Shown piece after piece: positions 9,446 through 55,554 of a stretch of 64,000 nt of DNA. The position numbers and the translations under genes are program-made. The notes beneath the pieces are model-generated. The model saw nothing but the letters and a program-made list of their open reading frames with translations. It made no database searches and was not told the origin of the DNA. The stretch lies in NCBI RefSeq assembly GCF_056712565.1, contig NZ_CM160072.1; one strand, written 5' to 3'. Position 1 is the stretch's first letter. Every line of letters starts with the position of its first letter.

Positions 9446-9768
9446 TTTTTTGCCCGTCCATATTCAACGGCTTCTTTGAGGAGTTCATTTTCCATCGTTT
9501 TCTTGCCGAGCAGGCGCTGGAGTTCTTTAATCTGCTTCATGGCGGCAGCAAGTTCAGAGGCAGGAACAACCTGTTCTCCGGCGGCGACAGCAGTAAGACT
9601 TCCTTCCTGGTATTGCTTACGCCAGAGAAATAACTGGCTGGCTGCTACACCATGTTGCCGGGCAACGAGGGAGACCGTCATCCCTGGTTCAAAGCTCTGC
9701 TGAACAATTGCGATCTTTTCCTGTGTGGTACGCCGTCTGCGTTTCTCCGGTCCTAAGACATCAATCAT
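9403..9768 (-). CDS. insC: IS2 OrfA (InsC), HTH protein
   Basis: ORF 9403..9813; start set at [24 protein letters not shown] (121 aa); overlaps insD in the usual frameshift arrangement. Confidence 0.85.
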
Positions 9769-10103
9769 CTGCTCTCCAATGACTAGTCTAAAAACTAGTA
9801 TTAAGACTATCACTTAAATAAGTGATATTGGTTGTCTGGAGATTCAGGGGGCCAGTCTAGTAACCTCATAAAAAATCCTGTACTCACAGGGTGATGCGGG
9901 ATAACTGACGTAAGGAGTGCTGCAGGGATTTGATGGTCCCTTGTGCTGATATGAATACGGATATTTTATACAGAATACTTTTCAGTACAAGCGACTGTAT
10001 TACAGTCTGCCATATATGATTACCTGTGATCAGGAAGAATAAGTGGCTGAGGTTTCAAACTGTCTGCCGGTATATTCCTCTCTCCCTTAAAAACCATAAC
10101 AGG

Positions 10104-42428: not shown

Positions 42429-42645
42429 GTTTATAGTGGTTAATGGTCTGCGAAAAGGCAGCTGAATCTCTTCATCATGCAGAACGGAATTGCACACAAC
42501 GGACTGATACTTCTCTGGCGGATGAGAGAGGGGAAGCATTTATGTCCGGGAAAAACCACTTTATCTGAGCATGCTGTTTTGTACCTGCCGGTATCCACAT
42601 TTGTGGGTACCGGCTTTTTTATTCACCCTCTGTAAGGAAAAGCTG

Positions 42646-45600
42646 ATGAAACGACATCTGAACACCAGCTACAGGCTGGTATGGAATCACATTACGGGCA
42701 CCCTGGTGGTGGCCTCCGAACTGGCCCGCTCACGGGGAAAACGCGCTGGTGTGGCGGTTGCGCTGTCTCTTGCTGCTGTCACATCAGTCCCGGCACTGGC
42801 TGCTGACAAGGTTGTACAGGCGGGAGAAACCGTGAACGACGGAACACTGACAAATCATGACAACCAGATTGTCCTCGGTACGGCCAACGGAATGACCATC
42901 AGTACCGGTCTGGAGTATGGGCCGGATAACGAGGCCAATACCGGCGGACAATGGATACAAAATGGCGGTATCGCCAACAACACTACTGTCACCGGTGGTG
43001 GTCTTCAGAGAGTGAATGCCGGAGGAAGCGTTTCAGACACGGTTATCAGTGCCGGAGGCGGACAGAGCCTTCAGGGGCAGGCAGTGAACACCACTCTGAA
43101 CGGCGGTGAGCAGTGGGTACATGAAGGCGGGATTGCAACGGGTACCGTCATTAATGAGAAGGGCTGGCAGGCCATCAAATCCGGCGCAGTGGCAACCGAC
43201 ACGGTTGTGAATACCGGCGCGGAAGGGGGACCGGATGCGGAAAATGGTGATACCGGGCAGACCGTCTACGGAGATGCCGTACGCACCACCATCAATAAAA
43301 ATGGTCGTCAGATTGTGGCTGCTGAAGGAACGGCAAATACCACTGTGGTTTATGCCGGCGGCGACCAGACTGTACATGGTCACGCACTGGATACCACGCT
43401 GAATGGGGGGTACCAGTATGTGCACAACGGCGGTACGGCGTCTGGCACTGTTGTAAACAGTGACGGCTGGCAGATTGTCAAAAACGGGGGTGTGGCCGGG
43501 AATACCACCGTTAATCAGAAGGGCAGACTGCAGGTGGACGCCGGTGGTACAGCCACGAATGTCACCCTGAAGCAGGGCGGCGCACTGGTTACCAGTACGG
43601 CTGCAACCGTTACCGGCATAAACCGCCTGGGAGCATTCTCTGTTGTGGAGGGTAAAGCTGATAATGTCGTACTGGAAAATGGCGGACGCCTGGATGTGCT
43701 GACCGGACACACAGCCACTAATACCCGCGTGGATGATGGCGGAACGCTGGATGTCCGCAACGGTGGCACCGCCACCACCGTATCCATGGGAAATGGCGGT
43801 GTACTGCTGGCCGATTCCGGTGCCGCTGTCAGTGGTACCCGGAGCGACGGAAAGGCATTCAGTATCGGAGGCGGTCAGGCGGATGCCCTGATGCTGGAAA
43901 AAGGCAGTTCATTCACGCTGAACGCCGGTGATACGGCCACGGATACCACGGTAAATGGCGGACTGTTCACCGCCAGGGGCGGCACACTGGCGGGCACCAC
44001 CACGCTGAATAACGGCGCCATACTTACCCTTTCCGGGAAGACGGTGAACAACGATACCCTGACCATCCGTGAAGGCGATGCACTCCTGCAGGGAGGCTCT
44101 CTCACCGGTAACGGCAGCGTGGAAAAATCAGGAAGTGGCACACTCACTGTCAGCAACACCACACTCACCCAGAAAGCCGTCAACCTGAATGAAGGCACGC
44201 TGACGCTGAACGACAGTACCGTCACCACGGATGTCATTGCTCAGCGCGGTACAGCCCTGAAGCTGACCGGCAGCACTGTGCTGAACGGTGCCATTGACCC
44301 CACGAATGTCACTCTCGCCTCTGGTGCCACCTGGAATATTCCCGATAACGCCACGGTGCAGTCGGTGGTGGATGACCTCAGCCATGCTGGACAGATTCAT
44401 TTCACCTCCACCCGCACAGGGAAGTTCGTACCGGCAACCCTGAAAGTGAAAAACCTGAACGGACAGAATGGCACCATCAGCCTGCGTGTACGCCCGGATA
44501 TGGCACAGAACAATGCTGACAGACTGGTCATTGACGGTGGCAGGGCAACTGGAAAAACCATCCTGAACCTGGTGAACGCCGGCAACAGTGCGTCGGGGCT
44601 GGCGACCAGCGGTAAGGGTATTCAGGTGGTGGAAGCCATTAACGGTGCCACCACGGAGGAAGGGGCCTTTATCCAGGGGAATAAGCTGCAGGCCGGTGCC
44701 TTTAACTACTCCCTCAACCGGGACAGTGATGAGAGCTGGTATCTGCGCAGTGAAAATGCTTATCGTGCTGAAGTCCCCCTGTATACATCCATGCTGACAC
44801 AGGCAATGGACTATGACCGGATTCTGGCAGGCTCCCGCAGCCATCAGACCGGTGTAAACGGTGAAAATAACAGCGTCCGTCTCAGCATTCAGGGCGGTCA
44901 TCTCGGTCACGATAACAACGGCGGTATTGCCCGTGGAGCCACGCCGGAAAGCAGCGGCAGTTATGGCTTCGTCCGTCTGGAGGGTGACCTGCTGAGAACA
45001 GAGGTTGCCGGTATGTCTCTGACGACAGGGGTGTATGGTGCCGCAGGCCATTCTTCCGTTGATGTTAAGGATGATGACGGTTCCCGCGCCGGCACGGTCC
45101 GGGATGATGCCGGCAGTCTGGGCGGATACCTGAATCTGGTACACACGTCCTCCGGCCTGTGGGCTGACATTGTGGCACAGGGAACCCGCCACAGCATGAA
45201 AGCATCATCGGACAATAACGACTTCCGCGCCCGGGGCTGGGGCTGGCTGGGCTCACTGGAAACCGGTCTGCCCTTCAGTATCACTGACAATCTGATGCTG
45301 GAGCCACAACTGCAGTACACCTGGCAGGGACTCTCCCTGGATGACGGCCAGGATAACGCCGGTTATGTGAAGTTCGGGCATGGCAGTGCACAACATGTGC
45401 GTGCCGGCTTCCGTCTGGGCAGCCACAACGATATGAACTTTGGTAAAGGCACCTCATCCCGTGACACCCTGCGCGACAGTGCCAAACACAGTGTGCGTGA
45501 ATTGCCGGTGAACTGGTGGGTACAGCCTTCTGTTATCCGCACTTTCAGCTCCCGGGGTGACATGAGCATGGGTACAGCCGCCGCCGGCAGTAACATGACG

Positions 45601-45765
45601 TTCTCACCGTCCCGGAATGGCACGTCACTGGACCTGCAGGCCGGACTGGAAGCCCGTGTCCGGGAAAATATCACCCTGGGCGTTCAGGCCGGTTATGCCC
45701 ACAGCGTCAGCGGCAGCAGCGCTGAAGGTTATAACGGTCAGGCCACGCTGAATGTGACTTTTTGA
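42646..45765 (+). CDS. flu: Antigen 43 self-associating autotransporter adhesin
   Basis: ORF 42571..45765; start [52 protein letters not shown] (extended autotransporter signal peptide); repetitive Gly/Thr/Asn beta-helix passenger; C-terminal beta-barrel ending …GQATLNVTF. Confidence 0.9.
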
Positions 45766-45788
45766 TAATCAGGTCACTCTCCTTCAGG

Positions 45789-45815
45789 CCCCGGTCATCA
45801 TGACCGGGGCTTTTT
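45789..45815 (+). terminator. Rho-independent terminator of flu
   Basis: Hairpin CCCCGGTCA-TCA-TGACCGGGG followed by CTTTTT. Confidence 0.7.
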
Positions 45816-45835
45816 ACTTTCAGGGAGCAACAGAT

Positions 45836-45994
45836 ATGCCGGGTTGTACATCTCGTTTATTGCCCGAAGGCCCTTTCTCACGCGAACAGGCTGTTGCCGT
45901 CAAAACAGCTTACCGCAATGTGTTTACTGAAGATGACCAGGGAACATATTCCCGGCTGGTTATCCGTAATGCTGAAGGTCAGTTGCGCTGGTGA
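45836..45994 (+). CDS. Small hypothetical protein (52 aa) of CP4-type modules
   Basis: In-frame ATG downstream of the flu terminator within ORF 45800..45994. Confidence 0.35.
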
Positions 45995-46148
45995 TGCCGG
46001 AACACAGCTTAATACTCAGCTCGCCAGTTAAGGGCTTCTCAGACAATAAACGTCATTCATTTCATCTGTCAGGCCGCGTCTTCTCCGGGAGACGTGGCTT
46101 TTTCATTTATTACACCAGTAAATCGTAACCACCGATAAGGAGCAAATT

Positions 46149-46967
46149 ATGCGACTAGCCAGTCGTTTTGGTTATGCGAACCAGATACGCCGTGACCGTC
46201 CGCTGACACACGAAGAACTGATGCACTATGTTCCCAGTATTTTCGGTGAAGACCGGCATACTTCCCGCAGTAAACGATATGCGTACATTCCCACCATCAC
46301 CGTACTGGAAAGCCTGCAGCGGGAAGGCTTTCAGCCATTCTTCGCCTGCCAGACCCGTGTGCGCGACCCGGGCCGCCGGGGATACACAAAACACATGCTG
46401 CGTCTGCGGCGGGCCGGAGAGATAAACGGAGAACATGTCCCTGAAATCATTCTGCTCAACTCCCATGACGGTACCTCCAGCTACCAGATGCTGCCGGGTT
46501 ACTTCAGGTTCGTCTGTCAGAACGGATGCGTCTGTGGTCAGTCTCTGGGGGAAGTGCGTGTTCCGCACCGGGGAAATGTGGTGGACAGATTCATTGAAGG
46601 GGCTTACGAGGTGGTGGGCGTGTTTGACCGGATAGAGGAGAAGCATGATGCCATGCAGTCGCTGGTCCTGTCGCCACCGGCACGCCAGGCGCTGGCACAG
46701 GCGGCACTGACTTACCGTTATGGTGACGAACATCAGCCAGTCACCACCGCTGACATTCTGACACCACGACGCAGGGAGGGTTACGGTCAGGACCTGTGGA
46801 GCGCATATCAGACCATCCAGGAGAATATGCTGAAAGGCGGAATTTCCGGCCGCAGTGCAAAAGGAAAACGTATCCACACCCGTGCCATTCACAACATCGA
46901 CACCGATATTAAGCTCAACCGCGCATTGTGGGTAATGGCAGAAACGCTGCTGGAGAGCCTGCGCTGA
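46149..46967 (+). CDS. DUF932-like protein (YfjQ/YafZ family)
   Basis: 272 aa; size and position after the GTPase/Ag43 genes match YfjQ/YafZ-type proteins (recollection). Confidence 0.6.
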   Translation: MRLASRFGYANQIRRDRPLTHEELMHYVPSIFGEDRHTSRSKRYAYIPTITVLESLQREGFQPFFACQTRVRDPGRRGYTKHMLRLRRAGEINGEHVPEIILLNSHDGTSSYQMLPGYFRFVCQNGCVCGQSLGEVRVPHRGNVVDRFIEGAYEVVGVFDRIEEKHDAMQSLVLSPPARQALAQAALTYRYGDEHQPVTTADILTPRRREGYGQDLWSAYQTIQENMLKGGISGRSAKGKRIHTRAIHNIDTDIKLNRALWVMAETLLESLR

Positions 46968-47308
46968 TGCAGCATGTCCCTGAAAGCGTGATTCAGGCAC
47001 CAGAATCACCCGACGCCCCGGAGGCGCTGCCGGGGTGTCGTTCCATTTCTGATGATGACCTGTGCGCCTGGTGTACCCGTCTGCTTTACCGTCCCGGAGA
47101 AATCAGTCTGTGCAGACTGAGTATACAGGCAATGGCATCTGGCCATCCGTCTGTGACCGGAACGGTTACGCGTACGGCTGTCCGGAATTTCAGCCGAATA
47201 TCATTCATCCCTGATATTACCGGGTCATCACGGTCAGTGATGAACGTGATGTTGCCAGCTCCCGACCTTTACTCCCTCTCATTTATTCACATTACAAGGA
47301 TTTCATAC

Positions 47309-47782
47309 ATGAAAACATTGTCTCAGAACACCACCTCTTCGGCCTGTGCACCGGAGACTGACCTGCAAAAACTGGTAGCCACTCCCGTCCCTGATGAACG
47401 GCGCATCAGCTTCTGGCCGCAGCACTTTGGCCTCATTCCACAGTGGGTGACCCTGGAGCCCCGTATCTTCGGCTGGATGGACCGTCTGTGTGAAGACTAC
47501 TGCGGTGGTATCTGGAATCTGTACACCCTGAACAACGGCGGGGCATTTATGGCACCCGAACCGGATGACGATGATGACGAAACATGGGTACTGTTCAATG
47601 CCATGAACGGTAACCGCGCTGAAATGAGCCCGGAAGCCGCCGGCATTGCTGCCTGTCTGATGACGTACAGTCATCATGCCTGTCGTACGGAGTGTTATGC
47701 CATGACGGTCCATTATTACCGGCTGCGGGATTACGCCCTGCAGCATCCGGAATGCAGCGCCATTATGCGCATCATCGACTGA
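47309..47782 (+). CDS. Antirestriction protein (KlcA/ArdB-like; YfjX/YafX family)
   Basis: 157 aa from MKTLSQNTTSS…; upstream part of the same ORF (46967..47308) may be a separate small gene or an N-terminal extension. Confidence 0.65.
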   Translation: MKTLSQNTTSSACAPETDLQKLVATPVPDERRISFWPQHFGLIPQWVTLEPRIFGWMDRLCEDYCGGIWNLYTLNNGGAFMAPEPDDDDDETWVLFNAMNGNRAEMSPEAAGIAACLMTYSHHACRTECYAMTVHYYRLRDYALQHPECSAIMRIID

Positions 47783-47797
47783 ATGGAGAGAAGTACA

Positions 47798-48274
47798 ATG
47801 CAACAGCTTTCCTTTCTGCCCGGAGAGATGACGCCCGGCGAGCGCAGCCTCATTCAACGGGCCCTGAAAACCCTGGACCGCCATCTTCATGAACCCGGCG
47901 TGGCCTTCACCTCCACCCGTGCGGCACGAGAATGGCTGATTCTGAACATGGCGGGACTGGAGCGTGAAGAGTTCCGGGTGCTGTATCTGAACAACCAGAA
48001 TCAGCTGATTGCCGGTGAAACCCTCTTCACCGGCACCATCAACCGCACGGAAGTCCATCCCCGGGAAGTGATTAAACGCGCCCTGTATCACAATGCCGCT
48101 GCTGTGGTGCTGGCACACAATCACCCGTCCGGTGAAGTCACACCCAGCAAGGCAGACCGCCTTATCACGGAACGTCTGGTACAGGCACTGGGCCTGGTGG
48201 ATATCCGGGTGCCGGACCATCTGATAGTCGGTGGCAGCCAGGTTTTCTCCTTTGCCGAATATGGTCTGCTTTAA
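47798..48274 (+). CDS. RadC-like JAB-domain protein (YeeS/YkfG/YfjY family)
   Basis: JAMM motif HNHPSGEVTPSKAD; ORF 47783..48274. Confidence 0.8.
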   Translation: MQQLSFLPGEMTPGERSLIQRALKTLDRHLHEPGVAFTSTRAAREWLILNMAGLEREEFRVLYLNNQNQLIAGETLFTGTINRTEVHPREVIKRALYHNAAAVVLAHNHPSGEVTPSKADRLITERLVQALGLVDIRVPDHLIVGGSQVFSFAEYGLL

Positions 48275-48336
48275 CCCGTCACAACCACATCACACCTGTT
48301 TTCACTTTTATCTTCTGTCTTCAGAGGTATCCCACT

Positions 48337-48558
48337 ATGAAAATCATCACCCGTGGCGAAGCCATGCGTATTCACCGTCAGCATCCGGCATCCCGTCTTT
48401 TTCCGTTCTGTACCGGCAAATACCGCTGGCACGGCAGTGCTGAAGCGTATACCGGTCGTGAAGTGCAGGATATTCCCGGTGTGCTGGCCGTGTTTGCAGA
48501 ACGCCGTAAGGACAGTTTTGGTCCGTATGTCCGGCTGATGAGCGTCACCCTGAACTGA
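48337..48558 (+). CDS. YeeT-like small protein (DUF987)
   Basis: 73 aa; position between the RadC-like gene and the antitoxin as in CP4-44. Confidence 0.65.
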   Translation: MKIITRGEAMRIHRQHPASRLFPFCTGKYRWHGSAEAYTGREVQDIPGVLAVFAERRKDSFGPYVRLMSVTLN

Positions 48559-48720
48559 TGTTCCGTCACCCGGAAAACGAGTACGACTGGCAGAGCTCAG
48601 ACGCCGCTGTGGATGAGGTCCTGCTCATCAACGAATACACCTTTACCGAAGCCGGTCTGCGCGCCGGCTGACCCGTCATCGTTAAACTATCATTCACCGA
48701 TTTTCTGTGAGGATTTTATC

Positions 48721-49089
48721 GTGTCAGACACACTTTCCGGGACAACGCATCCCGATGACAATGACGACCATCCCTGGTGGGGACTACCCTGCACAGTGAC
48801 GCCCTGTTTCGGCGCCCGTCTGGTGCAGGAGGGTAACCGGTTGCATTACCTTGCCGACCGTGCCGGTATCAGAGGCCGGTTCAGAGATGCGGATGCGTAC
48901 CCTCTGGACCAGGCCTTTCCGCTGCTGATGAAACAACTGAAATTAATGCTCACCAGTGGTGAACTGAATCCCCGCCATCAGCATACCGTGACACTGTATG
49001 CGAAGGGGCTGACCTGTGAAGCCGACACCCTCGGCTCCTGTGGTTACGTTTATCTGGCTGTTTATCCGACACCTGAAACGAAAAAGTAA
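48721..49089 (+). CDS. cbeA: CbeA/YeeU-family antitoxin, GTG start
   Basis: VSDTLSGTTHPDDNDDHPWWGLPCTVTPCFGARLVQEGNRLHYLADRAGIRG…TPETKK, 122 aa, matches the CbeA family along its length. Confidence 0.75.
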   Translation: MSDTLSGTTHPDDNDDHPWWGLPCTVTPCFGARLVQEGNRLHYLADRAGIRGRFRDADAYPLDQAFPLLMKQLKLMLTSGELNPRHQHTVTLYAKGLTCEADTLGSCGYVYLAVYPTPETKK

Positions 49090-49178
49090 ACCACCAGAAT
49101 AACCTTCTGCTCCGGCCTGGTGTTTTCACCACGCCACTGTCCCATTTTTTATCTCTGCATATCAGGAAAATCTTCAGT

Positions 49179-49409
49179 ATGAAAACATTACCCGACACGC
49201 ATGTACGGGAGGTATCGTGCTGCCCGTCTCCAGTCACCATCTGGCAGACACTGCTCACCCGGTTACTGGACCAGCATTCCCTGATTTCCTCATCGATATC
49301 GAATAAGCACTCGTCGCAGAATTCTTTATCGAGTGAGAGCCTCTGTTCAAGGACGCTTCTTTTTTTTGTTGCAACGTGCACATCCCTTCATCTTTCCGCG
49401 CCTTTGTGA
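49179..49409 (+). pseudogene. cbtA: Truncated CbtA/YeeV-family toxin gene (only about the first 33 codons are toxin-like)
   Basis: MKTLPDTHVREVSCCPSPVTIWQTLLTRLLDQH matches the CbtA/YkfI/YpjF N-terminus; from about 49278 the frame reads unrelated low-complexity sequence. Confidence 0.7.
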
Positions 49410-49581: not shown

Positions 49582-49930
49582 GATAAGAAGTGCGGAAACG
49601 TTAGACTCACCTCTGTTGCTCCATCATGATGATGGGGCTGTTGGCCCTCGAATCTATCTGTCTATTAGCATCGGCATGACAAACACCATTTGTTTCCACA
49701 ACAAAAGACAATAGAAAAGTACATATGTACAAAAAGTGTGATTTATTCTGTCACTTCAGTACTTCCTTTCGCCTAAGTTTGCCCGTAATAATTCCCCGTG
49801 CAGTACTATTGTTGCGACATAACAACATGAATTACATGGTAATAATAGATGTTTTCCTCTGCTGATTCCTGTAAGGATCATGACTCCATACGACATCATT
49901 TTTAATTTTATACAGTTCAAAAAATCTACA

Positions 49931-49980
49931 TGTGTCACAAATAATTTTACATTTGATAATGTATAGTTGTCACATGACAA
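49931..49980 (+). promoter_or_regulatory. Operator-like palindromes TGTGTCACA and TTGTCACATGACAA in the mtnK promoter region
   Basis: Two palindromic sites sharing a TGTCACA core, 37-86 bp upstream of the mtnK ATG, near a GATAAT -10-like hexamer. Confidence 0.3.
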
Positions 49981-50016
49981 GTTGATTATCATTCTGTGTA
50001 GACAAGGAGAACTGTT

Positions 50017-51276
50017 ATGACGGATTCAATTCCATCAGGTTACAAGCCGCTGACATGTGACACGCTGCCGGGTTATCTCTCGTCCAGACTGACCCCTTCA
50101 TGCGAACCGGGAGGGTTACCTGAAGAGTGGAAAGTTTCAGAAGTGGGGGACGGAAACCTGAACATGGTGTTTATCGTTGAGGGGACACATAAAACCATCA
50201 TTGTAAAACAAGCTCTGCCCTGGCTTCGTGCCGGGGGCGAAGGATGGCCTTTATCTCTGAGCCGTGCGGGCTTTGAGTACAACGTCTTATGTCAGGAAGC
50301 CAAGTACGCGGGTCACACACTGATTCCGCAGGTCTATTTTTACGACCCGGAAATGGCGCTGTTTGCCATGGAGTATCTGACTCCTCACGTGATTCTGCGT
50401 AAGGAACTGATTAACGGTAAAAAATTCCCTAAACTAGCTGAAGATATCGGCAGATTTTTAGCACAGACTCTCTTCAATACGTCTGACATTGGCATGTCAG
50501 CAGAACAGAAAAAAGCGCTTACTGCCGAGTTCGCGTTGAATCATGAGCTGTGCAAAATTACGGAAGATCTGATCTTCACAGAGCCCTATTACAACGCTGA
50601 ACGGAATAACTGGACTTCTCCTGAGCTGGACGATGCCGTCCATAAGGCCTGGGCTGATGTAGAGATGATCCAGGTTGCCATGCGTTATAAGTACAAATTT
50701 ATGACAGAAGCGCAGGCATTGTTACATGGCGACCTTCATTCAGGCTCAATCATGGTGACCGACACGGATACCAAAGTGATTGATCCGGAGTTCGGTTTCA
50801 TGGGGCCAATGGCGTTTGATATCGGCAACTATATTGGCAACCTCCTGCTGGCGTACTTCTCACGCCCTGGGTGGGATGCGAATGAGCAACGTCGCGCTGA
50901 CTATCAGGAATGGCTGCTTCAGCAGATTGTCCAAACCTGGTCCGTTTTCACCCGGGAGTTCCGCCAGCTCTGGGACAACAAAACACAGGGCGACGCGTGG
51001 TCGACAGAAATGTATCAACAGAACAGGGCCGCTCTTGAGGACGCACAGGATCAGTTTTTTGCCACGCTGCTTGAAGATTCCCTGGTGAATGCCGGCATGG
51101 AAATGAATCGCCGGATCATTGGTTTTGCTGGCGTTGCCGAGCTGAAACAGATTGAAAATACAGAGCTTCGCGCAGGATGTGAACGACGTGCATTGACCAT
51201 GGCGCGCGATCTTATCGTCAATGCCCGCCAGTTTAAAAATATGGATTCCGTCATCCAGTCTGCGAAGGTTAAGTAA
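50017..51276 (+). CDS. mtnK: 5-methylthioribose kinase-like kinase
   Basis: 419 aa; phosphotransferase fold with HGDLHSGSIMV catalytic motif; first gene of a four-gene co-directional cluster. Confidence 0.8.
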   Translation: MTDSIPSGYKPLTCDTLPGYLSSRLTPSCEPGGLPEEWKVSEVGDGNLNMVFIVEGTHKTIIVKQALPWLRAGGEGWPLSLSRAGFEYNVLCQEAKYAGHTLIPQVYFYDPEMALFAMEYLTPHVILRKELINGKKFPKLAEDIGRFLAQTLFNTSDIGMSAEQKKALTAEFALNHELCKITEDLIFTEPYYNAERNNWTSPELDDAVHKAWADVEMIQVAMRYKYKFMTEAQALLHGDLHSGSIMVTDTDTKVIDPEFGFMGPMAFDIGNYIGNLLLAYFSRPGWDANEQRRADYQEWLLQQIVQTWSVFTREFRQLWDNKTQGDAWSTEMYQQNRAALEDAQDQFFATLLEDSLVNAGMEMNRRIIGFAGVAELKQIENTELRAGCERRALTMARDLIVNARQFKNMDSVIQSAKVK

Positions 51277-51285
51277 GAGGTCATT

Positions 51286-52401
51286 ATGAATATTAAAGGT
51301 AAACACTATCGTACGGTCTGGGTTTCCGGGGATGGAAAAGCGGTAGAAATCATCGATCAGACTAAGTTGCCTTTTAAGTTCGAGGTGGTGGCGCTTACCT
51401 CTGCGGAAATGGCCGCTACGGCTATTCAGGATATGTGGGTTCGTGGCGCTCCGCTTATTGGTGTCGTTGCAGCCTATGGCATCGCGCTGGGAATGAATCA
51501 CGATGCCAGTGACATGGGTCTGCAGCGTTACTATGACCTTCTTATCAAAACCCGACCAACGGCAATTAATCTCAAATGGGCCCTCGACAGGATGATAGAC
51601 ACACTGAAGGATCTCTGTGTATCAGAGCGCAAGGATGTGGCCTGGGCGCTGGCGGCAGAAATTGCCGAGGAAGATGTCGCGTTGTGTGAACAAATTGGAT
51701 TACATGGTGCAGAAGTCATCCGCGAAATAGCCCAGAAAAAACCGGCCGGGAGTGTGGTCAATATCCTGACACATTGTAACGCAGGCTGGCTGGCGACTGT
51801 AGACTGGGGAACCGCGCTTTCTCCCATCTACAAAGCGCATGAAAACGGAATCCCTGTTCACGTCTGGGTGGATGAAACGCGGCCACGTAATCAGGGCGGA
51901 CTCACGGCATTTGAACTGGGCTCACACGGTATTCCTCACACCCTGATCGCCGACAACGCGGGTGGCCACCTGATGCAACACGGTGACGTTGATCTCTGCA
52001 TTGTTGGGACCGATCGAACCACGGCCAGAGGGGATGTCTGTAATAAAATTGGTACCTATCTTAAGGCGCTGGCGGCCCATGATAACCATGTTCCCTTCTA
52101 CGTCGCGTTACCTTCTCCCACTATTGACTGGACTATCGAGGACGGAAAAAGCATTCCGATTGAGCAACGTGACGGAAAAGAGCAGTCCCATGTCTATGGG
52201 ATAAACCCTCAGGGAGAATTGAGCTGGGTCAATACCGCCCCTGAAGGAACCCGTTGTGGGAACTACGCTTTCGACGTCACGCCTGCCCGATACATTACCG
52301 GCTTCATTACTGAGCGGGGAGTCTGTGCTGCCAGTAAGTCAGCGCTGGCGGATATGTTTGCTGACCTGAAGAGTAAAGCACTCCAGGGGGAACAGCATTA
52401 A
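51286..52401 (+). CDS. mtnA: 5-methylthioribose-1-phosphate isomerase (eIF-2B alpha/beta/delta-like family)
   Basis: 371 aa; …[15 protein letters not shown]… and …[10 protein letters not shown]… typical of this isomerase family. Confidence 0.8.
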
Positions 52402-52431
52402 AACAGCGGCCATTGCTATTAAGGATCAGGA

Positions 52432-53073
52432 ATGGAACGGATTAAGTTAGCAGAAAAAATCATTTCCACTTGTCGGGAAATGAATGCGTCAGGTCTTAAT
52501 CAAGGAACATCAGGTAATGTGAGTGCCAGGTATACCGGTGGCATGTTGATTACGCCGAGTGGGATCGCTTATTCAAAGATGACGCCGGACATGATTGTCT
52601 TTGTAGACGATAAGGGAAAACCTGAAGCGGGTAAAATACCATCAAGTGAATGGTTAATTCATCTGGCGTGTTATAAAGCCAGACCAGAATTGAATGCTGT
52701 CATACATACGCATGCGGTGAATTCCACGGCGGTGGCAATACATAATCATTCAATTCCGGCCATTCATTATATGGTGGCGGTATCGGGGACGGATCATATT
52801 CCCTGTATTCCCTATTATACCTTTGGCAGTCCTGAACTGGCCGACGGTGTATCTAAAGGAATCAGAGAAAGTAAGTCCTTGCTGATGCAGCACCACGGTA
52901 TGCTGGCCATGGACGTCACGCTGGAAAAGACGTTGTGGCTGGCGGGTGAAACCGAGACGCTGGCTGATTTATACATCAAATGTGGCGGATTACATCACGA
53001 TGTTCCCGTGCTGTCTGAAGCCGAAATGACCATCGTCCTTGAAAAATTCAAAACGTATGGTTTGAAAGCGTAA
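52432..53073 (+). CDS. Class II aldolase/adducin-family protein (probable 5-methylthioribulose-1-phosphate / 5-deoxyribulose-1-phosphate aldolase)
   Basis: 213 aa; zinc-ligand motifs VIHTHAVNS and HHGMLA; no dehydratase-pathway genes downstream. Confidence 0.75.
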   Translation: MERIKLAEKIISTCREMNASGLNQGTSGNVSARYTGGMLITPSGIAYSKMTPDMIVFVDDKGKPEAGKIPSSEWLIHLACYKARPELNAVIHTHAVNSTAVAIHNHSIPAIHYMVAVSGTDHIPCIPYYTFGSPELADGVSKGIRESKSLLMQHHGMLAMDVTLEKTLWLAGETETLADLYIKCGGLHHDVPVLSEAEMTIVLEKFKTYGLKA

Positions 53074-53176
53074 TTACAGCTTTATTTTAATTAATAACAT
53101 ATGACAGCCATTCGCAGAATGGCTGCTATTCCCTCTGTCCACAACGATTGATTATAACTACCACAAGGAGTTATTT

Positions 53177-54181
53177 ATGTTTATCGTGGAATCGTATGCT
53201 GTCGCCATAATAATGTGTTTTATTACCATGATTTGCTGGGGTTCATGGGCGAATACAACTAAACTTGTCAGCAATAAAAAATGGGAGTTCCCTCTATTCT
53301 ATTGGGATTATTCAATTGGATTATTGCTGTGTTCTTTGTTATTTGCCTTCACGCTGGGTTCTATGGGCGAAGCCGGTCGCAGTTTTATACCTGATATTCA
53401 GCAGGCGAGCAGCAGTAGTCTGATGTCGGCAATACTGGCAGGGATTATCTTCAATATTTCCAATATTCTTCTGGTCGCTTCTATTAATCTTGCCGGTATG
53501 GCGGTAGCTTTTCCTGTGGGTGTGGGGCTGGCACTGGCTCTGGGTGTGATCACCACCTATATCGGCAATCCGCAGGGCGATCCGCTCATTCTGTTCCTCG
53601 GTGTCGTCTGCGTTGTGATCGCCATTATTTTTACCGCGATAGCCTATGGTCGTGTCACGCAGGAGGCGGATAAATCTCGCCGTAATAAAGGTCTCATTAC
53701 TGCCATTCTGGCGGGTATCATCATGGGATGGTTTTTCCGCTTCCTGGCGGACTCCATGTCTGACAATTTCAGCCAGCCTGCCAGCGGTCTGATGACGCCT
53801 TACTCAGCACTTGTTCTGTTTGCCGTGGGGCTGTTTTTGTCGAACTTTGTCCTTAACAGGCTGGTCATGAAAAAACCTATTTCAGGAGAACCGGTCAACG
53901 GGAAAATGTATTTTTCCGGGAGTTTACGGGATCATGTTTGCGGCTGGCTGGGCGGTATGATTTGGTGTGTCGGTCTGGCATTCAGTCTGATTGCGTCTGG
54001 TCAGGCGGGGTATGCCATTTCCTACGGTCTGGGACAGGGGGCCACAATGATTGCCGTGATCTGGGGAGTCTTCATCTGGAGAGAATTTGCCAGTGCGCCA
54101 GCCGGAACCAATAAACTGCTGCTGACCATGTTTATTTCATACATTGTGGGTATTGTTCTTATTATCGCCGCTAATCAATAA
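53177..54181 (+). CDS. DMT-superfamily sugar permease (GRP/RhaT-like), 10 predicted TM segments
   Basis: 334 aa, highly hydrophobic, two repeated 5-TM halves; last gene of the mtn cluster. Confidence 0.65.
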   Translation: MFIVESYAVAIIMCFITMICWGSWANTTKLVSNKKWEFPLFYWDYSIGLLLCSLLFAFTLGSMGEAGRSFIPDIQQASSSSLMSAILAGIIFNISNILLVASINLAGMAVAFPVGVGLALALGVITTYIGNPQGDPLILFLGVVCVVIAIIFTAIAYGRVTQEADKSRRNKGLITAILAGIIMGWFFRFLADSMSDNFSQPASGLMTPYSALVLFAVGLFLSNFVLNRLVMKKPISGEPVNGKMYFSGSLRDHVCGWLGGMIWCVGLAFSLIASGQAGYAISYGLGQGATMIAVIWGVFIWREFASAPAGTNKLLLTMFISYIVGIVLIIAANQ

Positions 54182-54185
54182 AATC

Positions 54186-54223
54186 CTGCCCCATATCTAC
54201 ATGGGGCAGTTGTTCATTCTTTT
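54186..54223. terminator. Bidirectional terminator-like hairpin between the permease gene and convergent yjhU
   Basis: CTGCCCCAT-ATCTAC-ATGGGGCAG followed by TTGTTCATTCTTTT. Confidence 0.5.
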
Positions 54224-55208
54224 AGTGTGGTAATTCACACGCCAGCAAAAACTCTGCCGTTCCTTCATCAACAATCAGGTCCGTGACATATCCTCCCAGC
54301 AGGGCACCCAACGTTGCGTCATAGCCTCTTTCCCCACCAGCAAGGAAGATCTTCCGTTCAATCTGCCTTAGCTGAGCCAGACTGATTCCCAGAATACGCT
54401 GGTCAACATCAGCCACGACGGGCATCCCTTCCTTGTCATAGAAGCGACCACAAATGACACCTACTGCGCCTAAATCCCGATACGTCTGCATTTCCTTCTT
54501 ATTCAGCACGCCCACCCGAATCAGGGGATTTTCATCAAGCGCGTTACCCACGACAAAAAAGGCTTTCGTACAGCGAGTCAGAACGTCAAAATTCGATCGA
54601 ATAATAGGCTCTGCCTGTAACTCCATGGCCAGTCTGGCGCTTGATACCACGGCGGGCACGTGCAGCGAGGCGACACGGCCTGAAAGCTTGTAGGCGATTT
54701 GCGATGAGGATTCAATGATCGTCAGGTCTGGCTGAGATGGCATGGAACCGAGCATCTGTATAACGGTGACATTTTTACATGACTTCGGCGTCATGGTTTT
54801 GCTCATCTGATGGATTGTTCTTCCCCAGGCAACCCCCAGCACATCACCATTCTCAATCACCTGATTCAGATACATGCCACCGGCACGTGAAAGGCGAGTC
54901 CGCATCAGCTTTGTATCATCACGTTTTCCGGCATGTTCGCCATCCGGCACGATGATCACTCTCTGGAGATTGAATTTATCGCGAATTTGCAAAGCAGCGT
55001 CGATAGAGCCAAAGACATTCACATCCAGGTTGATATGAACCAGTCCATTTTCCCGGGCTGTTTGCAGGTATTTGACAACCGTGACGCGGGACACCCCCAT
55101 GATAGCTGCAACTTCAGTCTGGCTTTTACCTTCCTGATAGTACAGCCATGTTGCATGAAGTACGGGATCATCATTGAACAGGCTGCTGTTTGTTTGATCT
55201 CTATCCAC
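54222..55208 (-). CDS. yjhU: SorC/DeoR-family sugar-binding transcriptional regulator
   Basis: 328 aa; HTH …SQTEVAAIMGVSRVTVVKYLQTAR…; SorC-type sugar-binding domain. Confidence 0.8.
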   Translation of the reverse strand: MDRDQTNSSLFNDDPVLHATWLYYQEGKSQTEVAAIMGVSRVTVVKYLQTARENGLVHINLDVNVFGSIDAALQIRDKFNLQRVIIVPDGEHAGKRDDTKLMRTRLSRAGGMYLNQVIENGDVLGVAWGRTIHQMSKTMTPKSCKNVTVIQMLGSMPSQPDLTIIESSSQIAYKLSGRVASLHVPAVVSSARLAMELQAEPIIRSNFDVLTRCTKAFFVVGNALDENPLIRVGVLNKKEMQTYRDLGAVGVICGRFYDKEGMPVVADVDQRILGISLAQLRQIERKIFLAGGERGYDATLGALLGGYVTDLIVDEGTAEFLLACELPH

Positions 55209-55554
55209 TTTTGTATACCTGTATTAAACCGGGGAAATGCTCATCTTAACCCTGTTTACCCGGAGAGTTGATGCAGATTGCCAGTGGCATGATTTTATAG
55301 AGATATTTTATTCTTTTACATGAAATAAACCAGCATACCATTTGAGCGATCGCCCGCTGTTCCCCCATACTGTAAAGCCGGAGACATGCTCCGGCTTTAC
55401 AGTATTACTGAGAATACACCCATCAAGCATAATCGAAGGTTCAATATCGCCCCTTTTTGATCGCCAGCGATTCGTCACAGTGCAGACGGTTGCCGTCACT
55501 CACTAAATTATGGGGGACAGTGAACAACAGGTTGGCTCACTGGCAAGAACCCGA

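What the first reader, a model, noticed from the sequence alone, without database searches (positions are those of the whole stretch)
49931..49980. Palindromic operator-like sites in the mtnK promoter
TGTGTCACA (49931-49939) and TTGTCA-CA-TGACAA (49967-49980) share a TGTCACA core and lie 37-86 bp upstream of mtnK. The spacing suggests binding of a dimeric regulator, but no regulator gene is inside the cluster; yjhU and yjhI nearby are candidates by proximity only.
Basis: seen in the sequence. Interest (0 to 1): 0.35.

Follow-up and report, generated by a model that had tools for sequence, protein, structure and literature searches.

The report
MtnR operator and CRP site, mtnK promoter
The two small palindromes lie in the promoter of an E. 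coli operon for growth on 5'-deoxynucleosides, whose regulators (the repressor YjhU/MtnR and the activator CRP) were published in 2025; comparison with other genera suggests the downstream palindrome is half of a two-part MtnR binding site and the upstream one is mostly a CRP half-site.

Summary
Both motifs are present exactly as described. Taken alone, neither is rarer than chance. The window is the leuX-island end of an ExPEC-type E. coli carrying the DHAP-shunt operon (mtnK-mtnA-ald2-transporter), with yjhU convergent downstream. Huening et al. (J Bacteriol 2025, PMC12632272) showed that YjhU, renamed MtnR, represses this promoter and that CRP activates it. They state that the MtnR binding site is unknown.

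I compared the promoter with the same operon in 13 alleles or species. The shared layout is a CRP-like site ending in TCACA, a 12-mer "site A", a TAnnnT -10 hexamer, and a 12-mer "site B" 20-21 bp after A. The site consensus is TTACAWWTGTAA.

- A matrix built only from non-Escherichia sites ranks E. coli site A (49947-58) first of 63,989 positions in the window. A distal palindrome (49719-30) ranks second.
Its TGTG half is not conserved, even in a divergent E. coli allele.

MtnR belongs to the SorC family. Its closest solved relative, B. subtilis DeoR, binds two-part operators as a tetramer.

This is an ordinary repressor-plus-CRP promoter with a newly predicted operator. The conserved -10 disagrees with the published transcription start.

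The parts
49924..49939 (.). CRP-like 16-mer ATCTA-CATGTG-TCACA. Only the right half, TCACA (49935-39), is conserved.
   Evidence: It matches the CRP consensus TGTGA-N6-TCACA at 6 of 10 positions in E. coli. The same position in other genera reads TGTTA-N6-TCACA (9/10) in Morganella, Cedecea and Klebsiella sp., and TGCTA, TGATA or TGTTG-N6-TCACA (8/10) in Vibrionaceae. TCACA is invariant and TGTG variable in the 4-allele alignment. CRP dependence and CRP EMSA on this fragment are published. This is probably the paper's weaker '-17.5' predicted site (my inference).
49947..49958 (.). Site A: predicted left half-operator of MtnR, TTACATTTGATA.
   Evidence: It ranks 1 of 63,989 positions in the window with a matrix built only from 20 non-Escherichia, non-Citrobacter sites. 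It is identical in Citrobacter, and V. sinensis has TTACATTTGATC. It keeps a fixed distance (6-7 bp) from TCACA in 13 promoters.
49962..49967 (+). Predicted -10 hexamer TATAGT, between sites A and B. Predicted start about 49973-49975.
   Evidence: A TAnnnT hexamer sits at this position in 12 of 13 promoters (TATAAT in Morganella, TATACT in Providencia, TAGTAT or TAATAT in Vibrio; CATATT in Cedecea). GTATAGTT is invariant in the 4-allele alignment. This is an inference and conflicts with the published start, '72 bp upstream'.
49967..49980 (.). Site B: predicted right half-operator of MtnR. Core 49968-79 is TGTCACATGACA.
   Evidence: It lies exactly 21 bp after site A, where other genera carry TTACATATGTAA-type palindromes. 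Its matrix score is 0.76 bits, rank 393 of 63,989 (p = 0.006), and it is the only register within +18..+24 that scores well. The pattern T..CAYATGAYA is invariant across four divergent Escherichia/Citrobacter alleles.
49926..49937 (.).
   Evidence: Matrix score 4.67, p = 0.0014 at exactly -21. The right half is not conserved in Citrobacter, the divergent E. coli allele or other genera. Weak and lineage-specific.
49719..49730 (.). Distal perfect palindrome GTACATATGTAC: candidate upstream MtnR operator, with a weak partner CAACAAAAGACA at 49699-49710.
   Evidence: Rank 2 of 63,989 with the non-Escherichia matrix. The partner at -20 has p = 0.003. The divergent E. coli allele has ATACACATGTAT and Citrobacter On2M has ATACATGTGTAT, so the outer G..C has changed symmetrically to A..T. 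It is lost in C. amalonaticus.
49938..49955 (.). Semi-palindrome CAAAT-N8-ATTTG, which the 2025 paper proposed as a possible MtnR site.
   Evidence: Located from the paper's description. The ATTTG half lies inside site A. The CAAAT half and the paper's presumed -10 (AATAAT, 49940-45) are not conserved: AATTAC in the divergent E. coli allele, AATGAT and ATTGAT in Citrobacter.
50017..54181 (+). DHAP-shunt operon: mtnK 50017-51276, mtnA 51286-52401, ald2 (class II aldolase) 52432-53073, GRP-family transporter 53177-54181.
   Evidence: ORFs, RefSeq annotation of identical DNA, Pfam, and operon status in PMC12632272.
54222..55208 (-). yjhU = mtnR, a SorC-family repressor (N-terminal HTH plus the Sugar-bind domain).
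   Evidence: Pfam PF04198, E = 9e-80. Best solved relative is B. subtilis DeoR 8R7Y, E = 1e-41. Repressor role is published. It stays next to mtnK-mtnA-ald2 in other genera.
53095..53106 (.). TAACATATGACA in the ald2-transporter spacer: a possible internal MtnR site, with a weak partner TTACAGCTTTAT at 53074-85.
   Evidence: Rank 6 in the window. Partner p = 0.01. Only partly conserved in Citrobacter and absent in Providencia. Weak.
50051..50062 (.). Third TGTCACA-containing 12-mer (TGACATGTGACA), inside mtnK codons 12-16.
   Evidence: One mismatch to site B on the opposite strand, 83 bp away. Matrix rank 197. It encodes the conserved Thr-Cys-Asp/Glu, which explains the bases. Probably coincidental.

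Best explanation
The mtnK promoter is a catabolic promoter under dual control.

CRP-cAMP binds a site whose conserved half is TCACA (49935-39).

The SorC-family repressor MtnR (YjhU) binds a two-part operator, most likely as a tetramer (a dimer of dimers). The operator consists of two pseudo-palindromic 12-mers 21 bp apart, which is two helical turns:
- Site A: TTACATTTGATA (49947-58).

The two sites bracket a conserved -10 hexamer (TATAGT, 49962-67), and site B covers the predicted start point. Bound MtnR would therefore exclude RNA polymerase. A phosphorylated pathway intermediate would release it.

Shown by others: MtnR represses, CRP is required and binds the fragment, and 126 bp upstream of mtnK is enough for regulation.

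Shown here: the motif, its pairing and its position are conserved.

Inferred: physical binding of MtnR to A and B, the tetramer, the -10 and start point, and the effector.
For: 1. Regulators. PMC12632272 shows about 5 log2 derepression of the operon in a yjhU deletion, complementation, no growth on 5-deoxyribose without crp, and a CRP EMSA. A 126-bp fusion (49891-50016) is fully regulated and a 66-bp fusion is dead. All elements proposed here lie within those 126 bp.
2. Gene neighbourhood. MtnR orthologues (51-99% identity) sit beside mtnK-mtnA-ald2 in Citrobacter, Providencia, Morganella, Cedecea, Klebsiella sp., Vibrio, Aliivibrio, two Pasteurellaceae and Pseudovibrio.
3. Conserved layout. 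Upstream of the first operon gene (mtnK in some species, an ABC ATPase gene in others), 13 promoters share CRP-like...TCACA, 6-7 bp, site A, 8 bp containing TAnnnT, then site B. The A-B spacing is 20-21 bp.
4. Independent test. A matrix built only from non-Escherichia, non-Citrobacter sites ranks 49947 first and 49719 second of 63,989 window positions.
5. Cross-validation. With each genus left out of the matrix in turn, the best hit in about 21 kb falls in the operon's upstream region in 10 of the 14 mtnK-linked loci compared, including all of Citrobacter On2M, Providencia, Cedecea, Klebsiella sp., Morganella, Aliivibrio and both Pasteurellaceae. In C. amalonaticus and three Vibrio loci it ranks second.
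6. Site B. It is the only good-scoring register within +18..+24 of site A (p = 0.006). Its core is invariant across four divergent alleles, as are TCACA and GTATAGTT.
7. Recognition helix. SRVTVVKYL is identical in the Escherichia, Providencia, Vibrio, Photobacterium, Proteus and Morganella orthologues and differs by one or two residues in Aliivibrio, the Pasteurellaceae and Pseudovibrio, so a shared specificity is plausible.
8. Family precedent. MtnR has PF04198 plus an HTH, and its best PDB match is B. subtilis DeoR. DeoR and CggR bind two-part 39-45 bp operators as tetramers, and the DeoR operator's right half contains TTTACATATGT (PMC11229326).
9. K-12 evidence. YjhU ChIP-exo in K-12, which lacks this operon, gave no peaks (PMC6237786).
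Against: - No binding data exist for MtnR on any DNA.
- E. coli site B matches the cross-genus consensus at only 7 of 12 positions and ranks only 393rd in the window.
- The CRP-like site is only 6/10 in E. coli. The paper's software preferred a different site 18 bp upstream (my mapping, centre about 49913.5).
- The published primer-extension start, '72 bp upstream of mtnK' (about 49945), does not fit a -10 at 49962-67. With that start, sites A and B lie at about +3..+14 and +24..+35. Those positions still allow repression, but the CRP geometry would differ.
- I chose the sites used to build the matrix by eye from positionally aligned promoters. This risks circularity, which is only partly offset by excluding Escherichia/Citrobacter and by the leave-one-genus-out test.
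Confidence: 0.65

Rival explanations
1. One reading: TGTGTCACA and TTGTCACATGACAA are two copies of one operator (core TGTCACA) bound by the same dimeric regulator.
For: They share the heptamer, and three TGTCACA copies cluster within 130 bp (simulated p about 0.0015). A 17-nt direct repeat at 35-bp spacing is 76% identical. A register shifted by 7 nt (CTACATGTGTCA, 49926-37) is an in-phase MtnR-like 12-mer exactly 21 bp before site A (p = 0.0014). MtnR could therefore also touch this region in E. coli.
Against: In the shared TGTCACA register the upstream motif scores -2.7 bits. Its TGTG half changes to GCA or ACG in the divergent E. coli allele and in Citrobacter. Other genera keep only TCACA there, as part of CRP-type sites. 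The 35-bp spacing is not a whole number of helical turns. One of the three heptamers is explained by conserved codons.
Confidence: 0.12
2. The published suggestion: MtnR binds the semi-palindrome CAAAT-N8-ATTTG (49938-55) lying over the -10 of promoter P1, whose start is 72 bp upstream of mtnK.
For: The authors proposed it after primer-extension mapping. The ATTTG arm lies inside site A, so the two models overlap by half. A TTCAAA-18-AATAAT promoter-like match exists at 49916-45.
Against: The CAAAT arm and AATAAT are not conserved (AATTAC in a divergent E. coli allele; absent in Providencia, Morganella, Cedecea and Vibrio). The ATTTG arm becomes ACATG in the divergent E. coli allele, while the MtnR-type 12-mer is kept. 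The paper's own numbers (72 bp; 188 versus 218 bp; -10 under 49938-55) are not mutually consistent. The mapping extended a primer with Vent polymerase on a cDNA pool, which is not a standard primer extension.
Confidence: 0.1
3. The palindromes are chance features of an AT-rich intergenic region and have no binding function.
For: Inverted repeats of this size are common: 120 per 64 kb, and 46% of shuffles of this region have at least one. Site B is only a moderate match to the consensus.
Against: The position is conserved across more than 10 genera whose flanking non-coding sequence is otherwise unalignable. The two best matrix hits in 64 kb both lie upstream of mtnK. MtnR-dependent regulation maps to this 126-bp segment.
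Confidence: 0.08
4. The downstream palindrome acts as an RNA hairpin in the 5' leader.
For: If transcription starts near 49945, the palindrome is transcribed. The minimum-energy fold pairs UGUCA with UGACA.
Against: The fold energy of 49945-50030 is not unusual (z = -0.81; 41 of 200 shuffles fold as well). Substitutions in other genera keep a DNA palindrome of the TTACAWWTGTAA type, not a particular stem. Under the conserved -10 model the start lies inside the palindrome.
Confidence: 0.03

Closest known systems
B. subtilis DeoR and its dra-nupC-pdp operator (SorC/DeoR subfamily; PDB 8R7Y; PMC11229326)
   Same: DeoR is the best solved homologue of MtnR (E = 1e-41, full length), with the same HTH plus PF04198 architecture. 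The operator is two-part, about 39 bp, with two half-operators about two helical turns apart, bound by a tetramer and overlapping the promoter. The right half contains TTTACATATGT, which resembles the MtnR consensus TTACAWWTGTAA. The effector is a sugar phosphate.
   Different: The DeoR left half is TTGAA-N6-TTCAA and the operator lies at -60 to -21. The MtnR halves bracket the -10. The effector differs: dRib-5-P for DeoR, while the effector for MtnR is unknown and presumed to be a 5-deoxypentose phosphate. MtnR binding has not been measured.
MtnR/CRP regulation of the E. coli DHAP-shunt operon (Huening et al. 2025, PMC12632272)
   Same: It is the same locus and the same promoter sequence. The regulators and the 126-bp regulated segment come from that work.
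   Different: The paper leaves the MtnR site unknown and suggests CAAAT-N-ATTTG. It places the start 72 bp upstream and CRP at -35.5. Comparative data here point to TTACATTTGATA-N9-TGTCACATGACA, a -10 at 49962-67, and the conserved TCACA as the CRP half-site.
Class II CRP-dependent promoters with an overlapping specific repressor (such as galP1 or melR; general E. coli knowledge)
   Same: There is a poor -35. In Morganella and Cedecea, a 9/10 CRP site is centred about 41.5 bp before the start predicted from the -10. Catabolite repression is shown experimentally.
   Different: In E. coli the left CRP half-site has decayed (ATCTA), and the geometry depends on a start point that conflicts with the published one.
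E. coli DeoR/GlpR family (HTH_DeoR plus DeoRC, such as DeoR, GlpR, FucR)
   Same: These are sugar-phosphate-responsive repressors of catabolic operons that are co-regulated by CRP. The 2025 paper uses this analogy.
   Different: MtnR has no DeoRC domain. It carries PF04198 and belongs to the SorC family. The E. coli DeoR operator and its long-range three-operator looping (my own knowledge) should not be carried over.

Membership tests
SorC/DeoR-subfamily repressor with a two-part operator | The regulator has an N-terminal HTH DNA-binding domain plus the C-terminal sugar-phosphate-binding domain PF04198. | tested here: met
   Pfam PF04198 E = 9e-80, plus HTH hits at residues 19-57. Full-length match to B. 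subtilis DeoR 8R7Y, SorC 2W48 and LsrR 4GO1.
SorC/DeoR-subfamily repressor with a two-part operator | Two (pseudo)palindromic half-operators about two helical turns apart, together about 33-45 bp. | tested here: met
   Sites A (49947-58) and B (49968-79) are 21 bp centre to centre. The spacing is 20-21 bp in 13 promoters. The family paradigm comes from PMC11229326.
SorC/DeoR-subfamily repressor with a two-part operator | The operator overlaps or closely follows the core promoter, so that binding blocks transcription. | tested here: inconclusive
   With the conserved -10 (49962-67), A and B bracket it. With the published start (about 49945), they lie at +3..+35. Both allow repression, but the start point is disputed.
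SorC/DeoR-subfamily repressor with a two-part operator | The protein binds the operator as a tetramer and is released or loosened by a phosphorylated sugar effector. | not testable with these tools
   This needs EMSA, footprinting or mass photometry with purified MtnR and candidate effectors. Only genetic repression is published.
CRP (cAMP receptor protein) binding site, class II promoter | Match to the consensus TGTGA-N6-TCACA. | tested here: inconclusive
   E. coli ATCTA-CATGTG-TCACA matches at 6/10, with a perfect right half. Orthologous positions match at 8-9/10. The alternative site TTTTA-TACAGT-TCAAA (49906-21) matches at 7/10 but is not conserved.
CRP (cAMP receptor protein) binding site, class II promoter | Site centred near -41.5 from the transcription start. 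| tested here: inconclusive
   The centre at 49931.5 is at -41.5/-42.5 from the start predicted by TATAGT. It is at about -13.5 from the published start as stated (72 bp upstream, about 49945), and at -17.5 if that start lies near 49949, which is my reading of the paper's second predicted site. The paper reports its sites at -35.5 and -17.5.
CRP (cAMP receptor protein) binding site, class II promoter | CRP-dependent expression and CRP binding to the promoter DNA. | not testable with these tools
   Published: a crp deletion cannot grow on 5-deoxyribose, growth is diauxic, and EMSA shows one dominant complex on the 255-bp fragment. The exact site has not been mapped.
E. coli-type DeoR/GlpR family | C-terminal DeoRC sensor domain with an HTH_DeoR N-terminus. 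| tested here: not met
   No DeoRC or HTH_DeoR hit. The sensor domain is PF04198. The neighbouring gene sgcR is the true DeoR/GlpR member.

The most novel reading that the evidence does not exclude
Two readings remain open.
- E. coli and close relatives may have evolved three in-phase MtnR sites at 21-bp steps (49926, 49947, 49968), plus a distal pair near 49699-49730. The first of these overlaps the decayed CRP site. If so, MtnR would not only block polymerase but also compete with CRP, possibly looping to the distal site.
- The functional start may lie near 49973 rather than 72 bp upstream as published.
Probability: 0.2. Interest if true: 0.4.

Novelty: new member of a known kind. Interest (0 to 1): 0.3.

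Why it matters
The DHAP shunt lets ExPEC lineages such as ST131 grow on 5'-deoxynucleoside waste products. Its regulators were identified only in 2025, and the operator was left open.

A concrete operator prediction, conserved across genera, gives the field direct point-mutation and footprinting targets. The prediction is TTACAWWTGTAA twice at 21-bp spacing, which in E. coli is 49947-58 plus 49968-79.

It also flags a likely problem with the published start point and -10 assignment. In addition, it gives a search motif for MtnR regulons in Vibrio, Morganella, Providencia and Pasteurellaceae.

Beyond that specialist use, this is a textbook repressor-plus-CRP promoter.

Tried and rejected
- RNA hairpin in the leader: the fold is not better than shuffles (z = -0.81).
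- Autoregulation of yjhU in E. coli: no motif in its upstream region (55209-55554), by eye or by matrix.
- A third TGTCACA copy inside mtnK as an operator: explained by the conserved Thr-Cys-Asp codons. It cannot be excluded.
- efeU, reported as up in the mtnR deletion: the K-12 efeU upstream region has only TTAGATTTGATA, 340 bp upstream, which lacks the invariant C4. This is no convincing site, so the effect may be indirect.
- Site B as a CRP site: the right half AAGTT matches 0/5 (sequence).
- Fur box: GATAATG (49955-61) matches only the first 7 nt of the Fur consensus, and the TGATAAT/ATTATCA repeat is 24 nt apart. Not pursued.
- Proteus MtnR orthologues (60% identity) have no mtnK within 10 kb. 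Their neighbours are an unrelated SBP_bac_11 ABC transporter, so they were not informative for the motif.
- I tried to recover the exact promoter drawing (Fig. 5A) from the paper's text and supplement. Only primers and the 5'UTR sequence are available. My mapping of the paper's -35.5 and -17.5 CRP sites to centres 49913.5 and 49931.5 is therefore an inference from their 18-bp spacing.
- No other paper in the library describes an MtnR or YjhU operator.

Full report
**Locus.** The window segment 48500-56000 is 100% identical to many ExPEC-type E. coli chromosomes. RefSeq annotation of identical DNA, ORFs and Pfam give these genes:
- mtnK, 50017-51276
- mtnA, 51286-52401
- a class II aldolase (ald2), 52432-53073
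- a GRP-family transporter, 53177-54181
- yjhU, convergent, 54222-55208 on the minus strand
- yjhF, yjhG, yjhH and yjhI follow

About 1,075 of 5,426 complete E. coli genomes carry this promoter. In 1,058 of them it is at least 99% identical.

**Observation.** As bare palindromes they are unremarkable. The window has 120 perfect inverted repeats with 6-nt arms and 247 of the 4-1-4 kind. Three TGTCACA copies within 130 bp are unusual (simulated p about 0.0015), but one lies in conserved Thr-Cys-Asp codons of mtnK.

**What is already known.** Huening et al. (J Bacteriol 2025, PMC12632272) studied exactly this promoter in ATCC 25922. The supplement's 5'UTR sequence contains both motifs unchanged. 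Their findings:
- The four genes form an operon.
- Deleting yjhU, renamed mtnR, derepresses it about 5 log2 on glucose, and the effect is complemented.
- CRP is needed for growth on 5-deoxyribose and shifts the 255-bp promoter fragment.
- A 126-bp fusion is fully regulated and a 66-bp fusion is inactive.
- The primary start was put 72 bp upstream of mtnK.
- CRP sites were predicted at -35.5 and -17.5.

The paper states that the MtnR recognition sequence is unknown. It offers CAAAT-N-ATTTG (49938-42 and 49951-55) as a visual guess. The open question is where they bind.

**Comparative test: gene context.** MtnR is a SorC-family protein (PF04198 plus an HTH), not an E. coli-type DeoR/GlpR protein. 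Orthologues at 51-99% identity were found in Providencia, Vibrio, Photobacterium, Aliivibrio, Morganella, Proteus, Pasteurellaceae and Pseudovibrio. One scan of species-representative genomes returned 36 loci. In 21 of them mtnK and mtnA lie within 10 kb of mtnR, with ald2 as well in all but two (Pseudovibrio and a Hyphomicrobiales MAG).

mtnK is the first operon gene in E. coli, Citrobacter, Providencia and Morganella. In Cedecea and Klebsiella sp. the operon starts with ribose-type ABC transporter genes, and in Vibrionaceae and Pseudovibrio an RbsD/FucU gene precedes them as well. In the Pasteurellaceae the ABC ATPase gene comes first.

**Comparative test: shared layout.** Lining up the DNA upstream of the relevant first gene shows the same layout in 13 promoters:
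- a CRP-type 16-mer ending in TCACA (TGTTA-N6-TCACA in Morganella and Cedecea; TGCTA or TGATA-N6-TCACA in Vibrio)
- 6-7 bp
- a 12-mer "site A"
- 8 bp that, together with the next base, give a TAnnnT hexamer
- a 12-mer "site B"

The A-to-B spacing is 20-21 bp and the site consensus is TTACAWWTGTAA. In E. coli these elements are:
- ATCTA-CATGTG-TCACA, 49924-39
- TTACATTTGATA, 49947-58
- TATAGT, 49962-67
- TGTCACATGACA, 49968-79

**Independence and statistics.**
- A matrix built from 20 sites, none from Escherichia or Citrobacter, was scanned over the 64-kb window. It ranks 49947 first and a perfect palindrome GTACATATGTAC at 49719 second. TAACATATGACA at 53095 (the ald2-transporter spacer) ranks sixth.
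- Site B ranks 393rd (p = 0.006), but it is the only good register within +18..+24 of site A.
- When each genus was left out of the matrix in turn, the best hit in its roughly 21-kb locus fell in the operon's upstream region for Citrobacter On2M, Providencia, V. plantisponsor, Aliivibrio, Cedecea, Klebsiella sp., both Morganella species and both Pasteurellaceae. In C. amalonaticus and three other Vibrio loci it was the second-best hit.
- Pseudovibrio and a Hyphomicrobiales MAG were never used in the matrix. Their top hits also lie in the operon's regulatory regions.
- The recognition helix (SRVTVVKYL) is identical in most orthologues and differs by one or two residues in the most distant ones, which justifies carrying the motif across genera.

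**Within-lineage footprint.** I aligned the window, a divergent E. coli allele (strain LR14, 87.5% identity) and two Citrobacter species.
- Invariant: ATCTACAT, TCACAAAT, TTTACA..TGATAA, GTATAGTT and the core T..CAYATGAYA of site B.
- Not conserved: AATAAT (49940-45), which I take to be the paper's -10. It becomes AATTAC, AATGAT or ATTGAT.
- The distal palindrome changes symmetrically (GTACATATGTAC to ATACACATGTAT), as expected for a site bound by a dimer.

**Mechanism.** B. subtilis DeoR, the closest solved relative of MtnR (8R7Y, E = 1e-41), and CggR bind two-part 39-45 bp operators as tetramers, each a dimer of dimers. Each DNA-binding-domain dimer sits on one half-operator. A sugar phosphate weakens the complex (PMC11229326).

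The A+B pair at 21-bp spacing fits this pattern. I therefore propose that an MtnR tetramer occupies 49947-79, bracketing the -10 and covering the start, and that a phosphorylated shunt intermediate releases it. The authors also suggest a phosphorylated effector.

The conserved TCACA is best read as the strong half of the CRP site. In E. coli and Citrobacter the left half has decayed. There, the 12-mer CTACATGTGTCA (49926-37), exactly 21 bp before site A, happens to score as an MtnR-like site (p = 0.0014).

**Conflict with the published start.** A -10 at 49962-67 predicts a start near 49973-75. That would put the conserved CRP site at -41.5/-42.5, the class II position. The paper reports 72 bp upstream (about 49945). 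Several points weaken that figure:
- The paper's own numbers are not fully consistent: 188 versus 218 bp for P2, and a -10 said to lie under 49938-55.
- The assay extended a Cy5 primer with Vent polymerase on a random cDNA pool.
- The primer's 5' end is at 50047. A 72-nt product would end at 49976. This is speculation on my part.

I cannot resolve the conflict. Under either start point, sites A and B are placed so that a bound repressor could block transcription.

**Rivals.** These were considered:
- The authors' CAAAT/ATTTG model.
- Pure chance.
- An RNA hairpin (z = -0.81).

All are weaker than the two-part operator model, for the reasons listed under each rival.

**Verdict.** The regulators and the logic of regulation are already published. 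The operator assignment is a modest new prediction of a familiar kind.

Noticed in passing
window 49719-49730 (partner 49699-49710): A perfect 12-bp palindrome GTACATATGTAC lies 298-287 bp upstream of mtnK. It is the second-best match in the whole window to the MtnR matrix built from other genera. Its outer bases change symmetrically in a divergent E. coli allele and in Citrobacter On2M. It may be a distal MtnR operator. It lies upstream of the paper's weak P2 promoter.
   Followed up: partly
window 53074-53125: The ald2-transporter spacer holds an MtnR-like 12-mer TAACATATGACA (53095-106, rank 6 in the window). It is followed at once by a stem-loop (CAGCCATTC-GCA-GAATGGCTG) with no T-run. The stem-loop is conserved in Citrobacter and Providencia, but the 12-mer is only partly conserved.
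   Followed up: partly
window 49940-49975 versus PMC12632272: The published start (72 bp upstream) and its implied -10 are not conserved, even among E. coli alleles. A TAnnnT hexamer between sites A and B is conserved in 12 of 13 promoters. The paper also gives P2 as 188 bp in the text and 218 bp in a legend.
   Followed up: partly
L004, L005, L016, L028 about 9845-9880 (Vibrio); L026 and L030 about 9700-9830 (Pasteurellaceae): In Vibrio, a second pair of MtnR-like sites (ATACTTTTGTAT ... ATACAAAGGTAA) lies in the divergent mtnR / rbsD-like intergenic region, and the two Pasteurellaceae carry extra site pairs in their mtnR / ABC-ATPase intergenic region. This suggests autoregulation or a second promoter there. 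E. coli yjhU has no such site upstream.
   Followed up: partly
L004-L009, L016, L026-L030: Outside Escherichia, Citrobacter, Providencia and Morganella, the operon carries a ribose-type ABC importer (ATPase, permease, Peripla_BP_4 binding protein), preceded in Vibrionaceae and Pseudovibrio by an RbsD/FucU gene, instead of the GRP permease. Uptake of 5-deoxypentose or methylthioribose has therefore been solved in two ways.
   Followed up: partly
L011-L018, L023, L033 (Proteus): Proteus species keep a 60%-identical MtnR orthologue with the same recognition helix, but have no mtnK, mtnA or ald2 within 10 kb. The neighbours are an SBP_bac_11-type ABC transporter. Its target there is unknown.
   Followed up: partly
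L038 (E. coli LR14, NZ_CM188746.1) and 11 other genomes: Twelve complete E. coli genomes carry an mtnK promoter allele only 80-90% identical to the common one. In LR14 it lies next to a degraded TnpB/InsQ gene. This suggests a separate acquisition or a recombinant origin of the island end.
   Followed up: partly
window 49954-49960 / 49985-49991: A TGATAAT / ATTATCA inverted repeat, 24 nt apart, flanks site B. GATAAT is a Fur-box hexamer, and the paper links MtnR to iron-related efeU. However, there is no contiguous Fur box here, and no convincing MtnR site upstream of efeU in K-12.
   Followed up: partly
L029 6490-6596 (Rhodospirillaceae MAG): The locus of a distant MtnR-like protein (38% identity) carries strong matches to the same motif: TTACATTTGAAA, then TTATATTTGATC 22 bp later, then TAACAAATGAAA. 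No mtnK was detected there. The motif may extend to a wider SorC subgroup.
   Followed up: no
window 42571-49400: Upstream of the operon lie typical leuX-island genes: Ag43 autotransporter, DUF932, antirestriction protein, JAB/RadC-like protein, YeeU antitoxin and a truncated CbtA toxin. The operon therefore sits at the junction between island and core.
   Followed up: no
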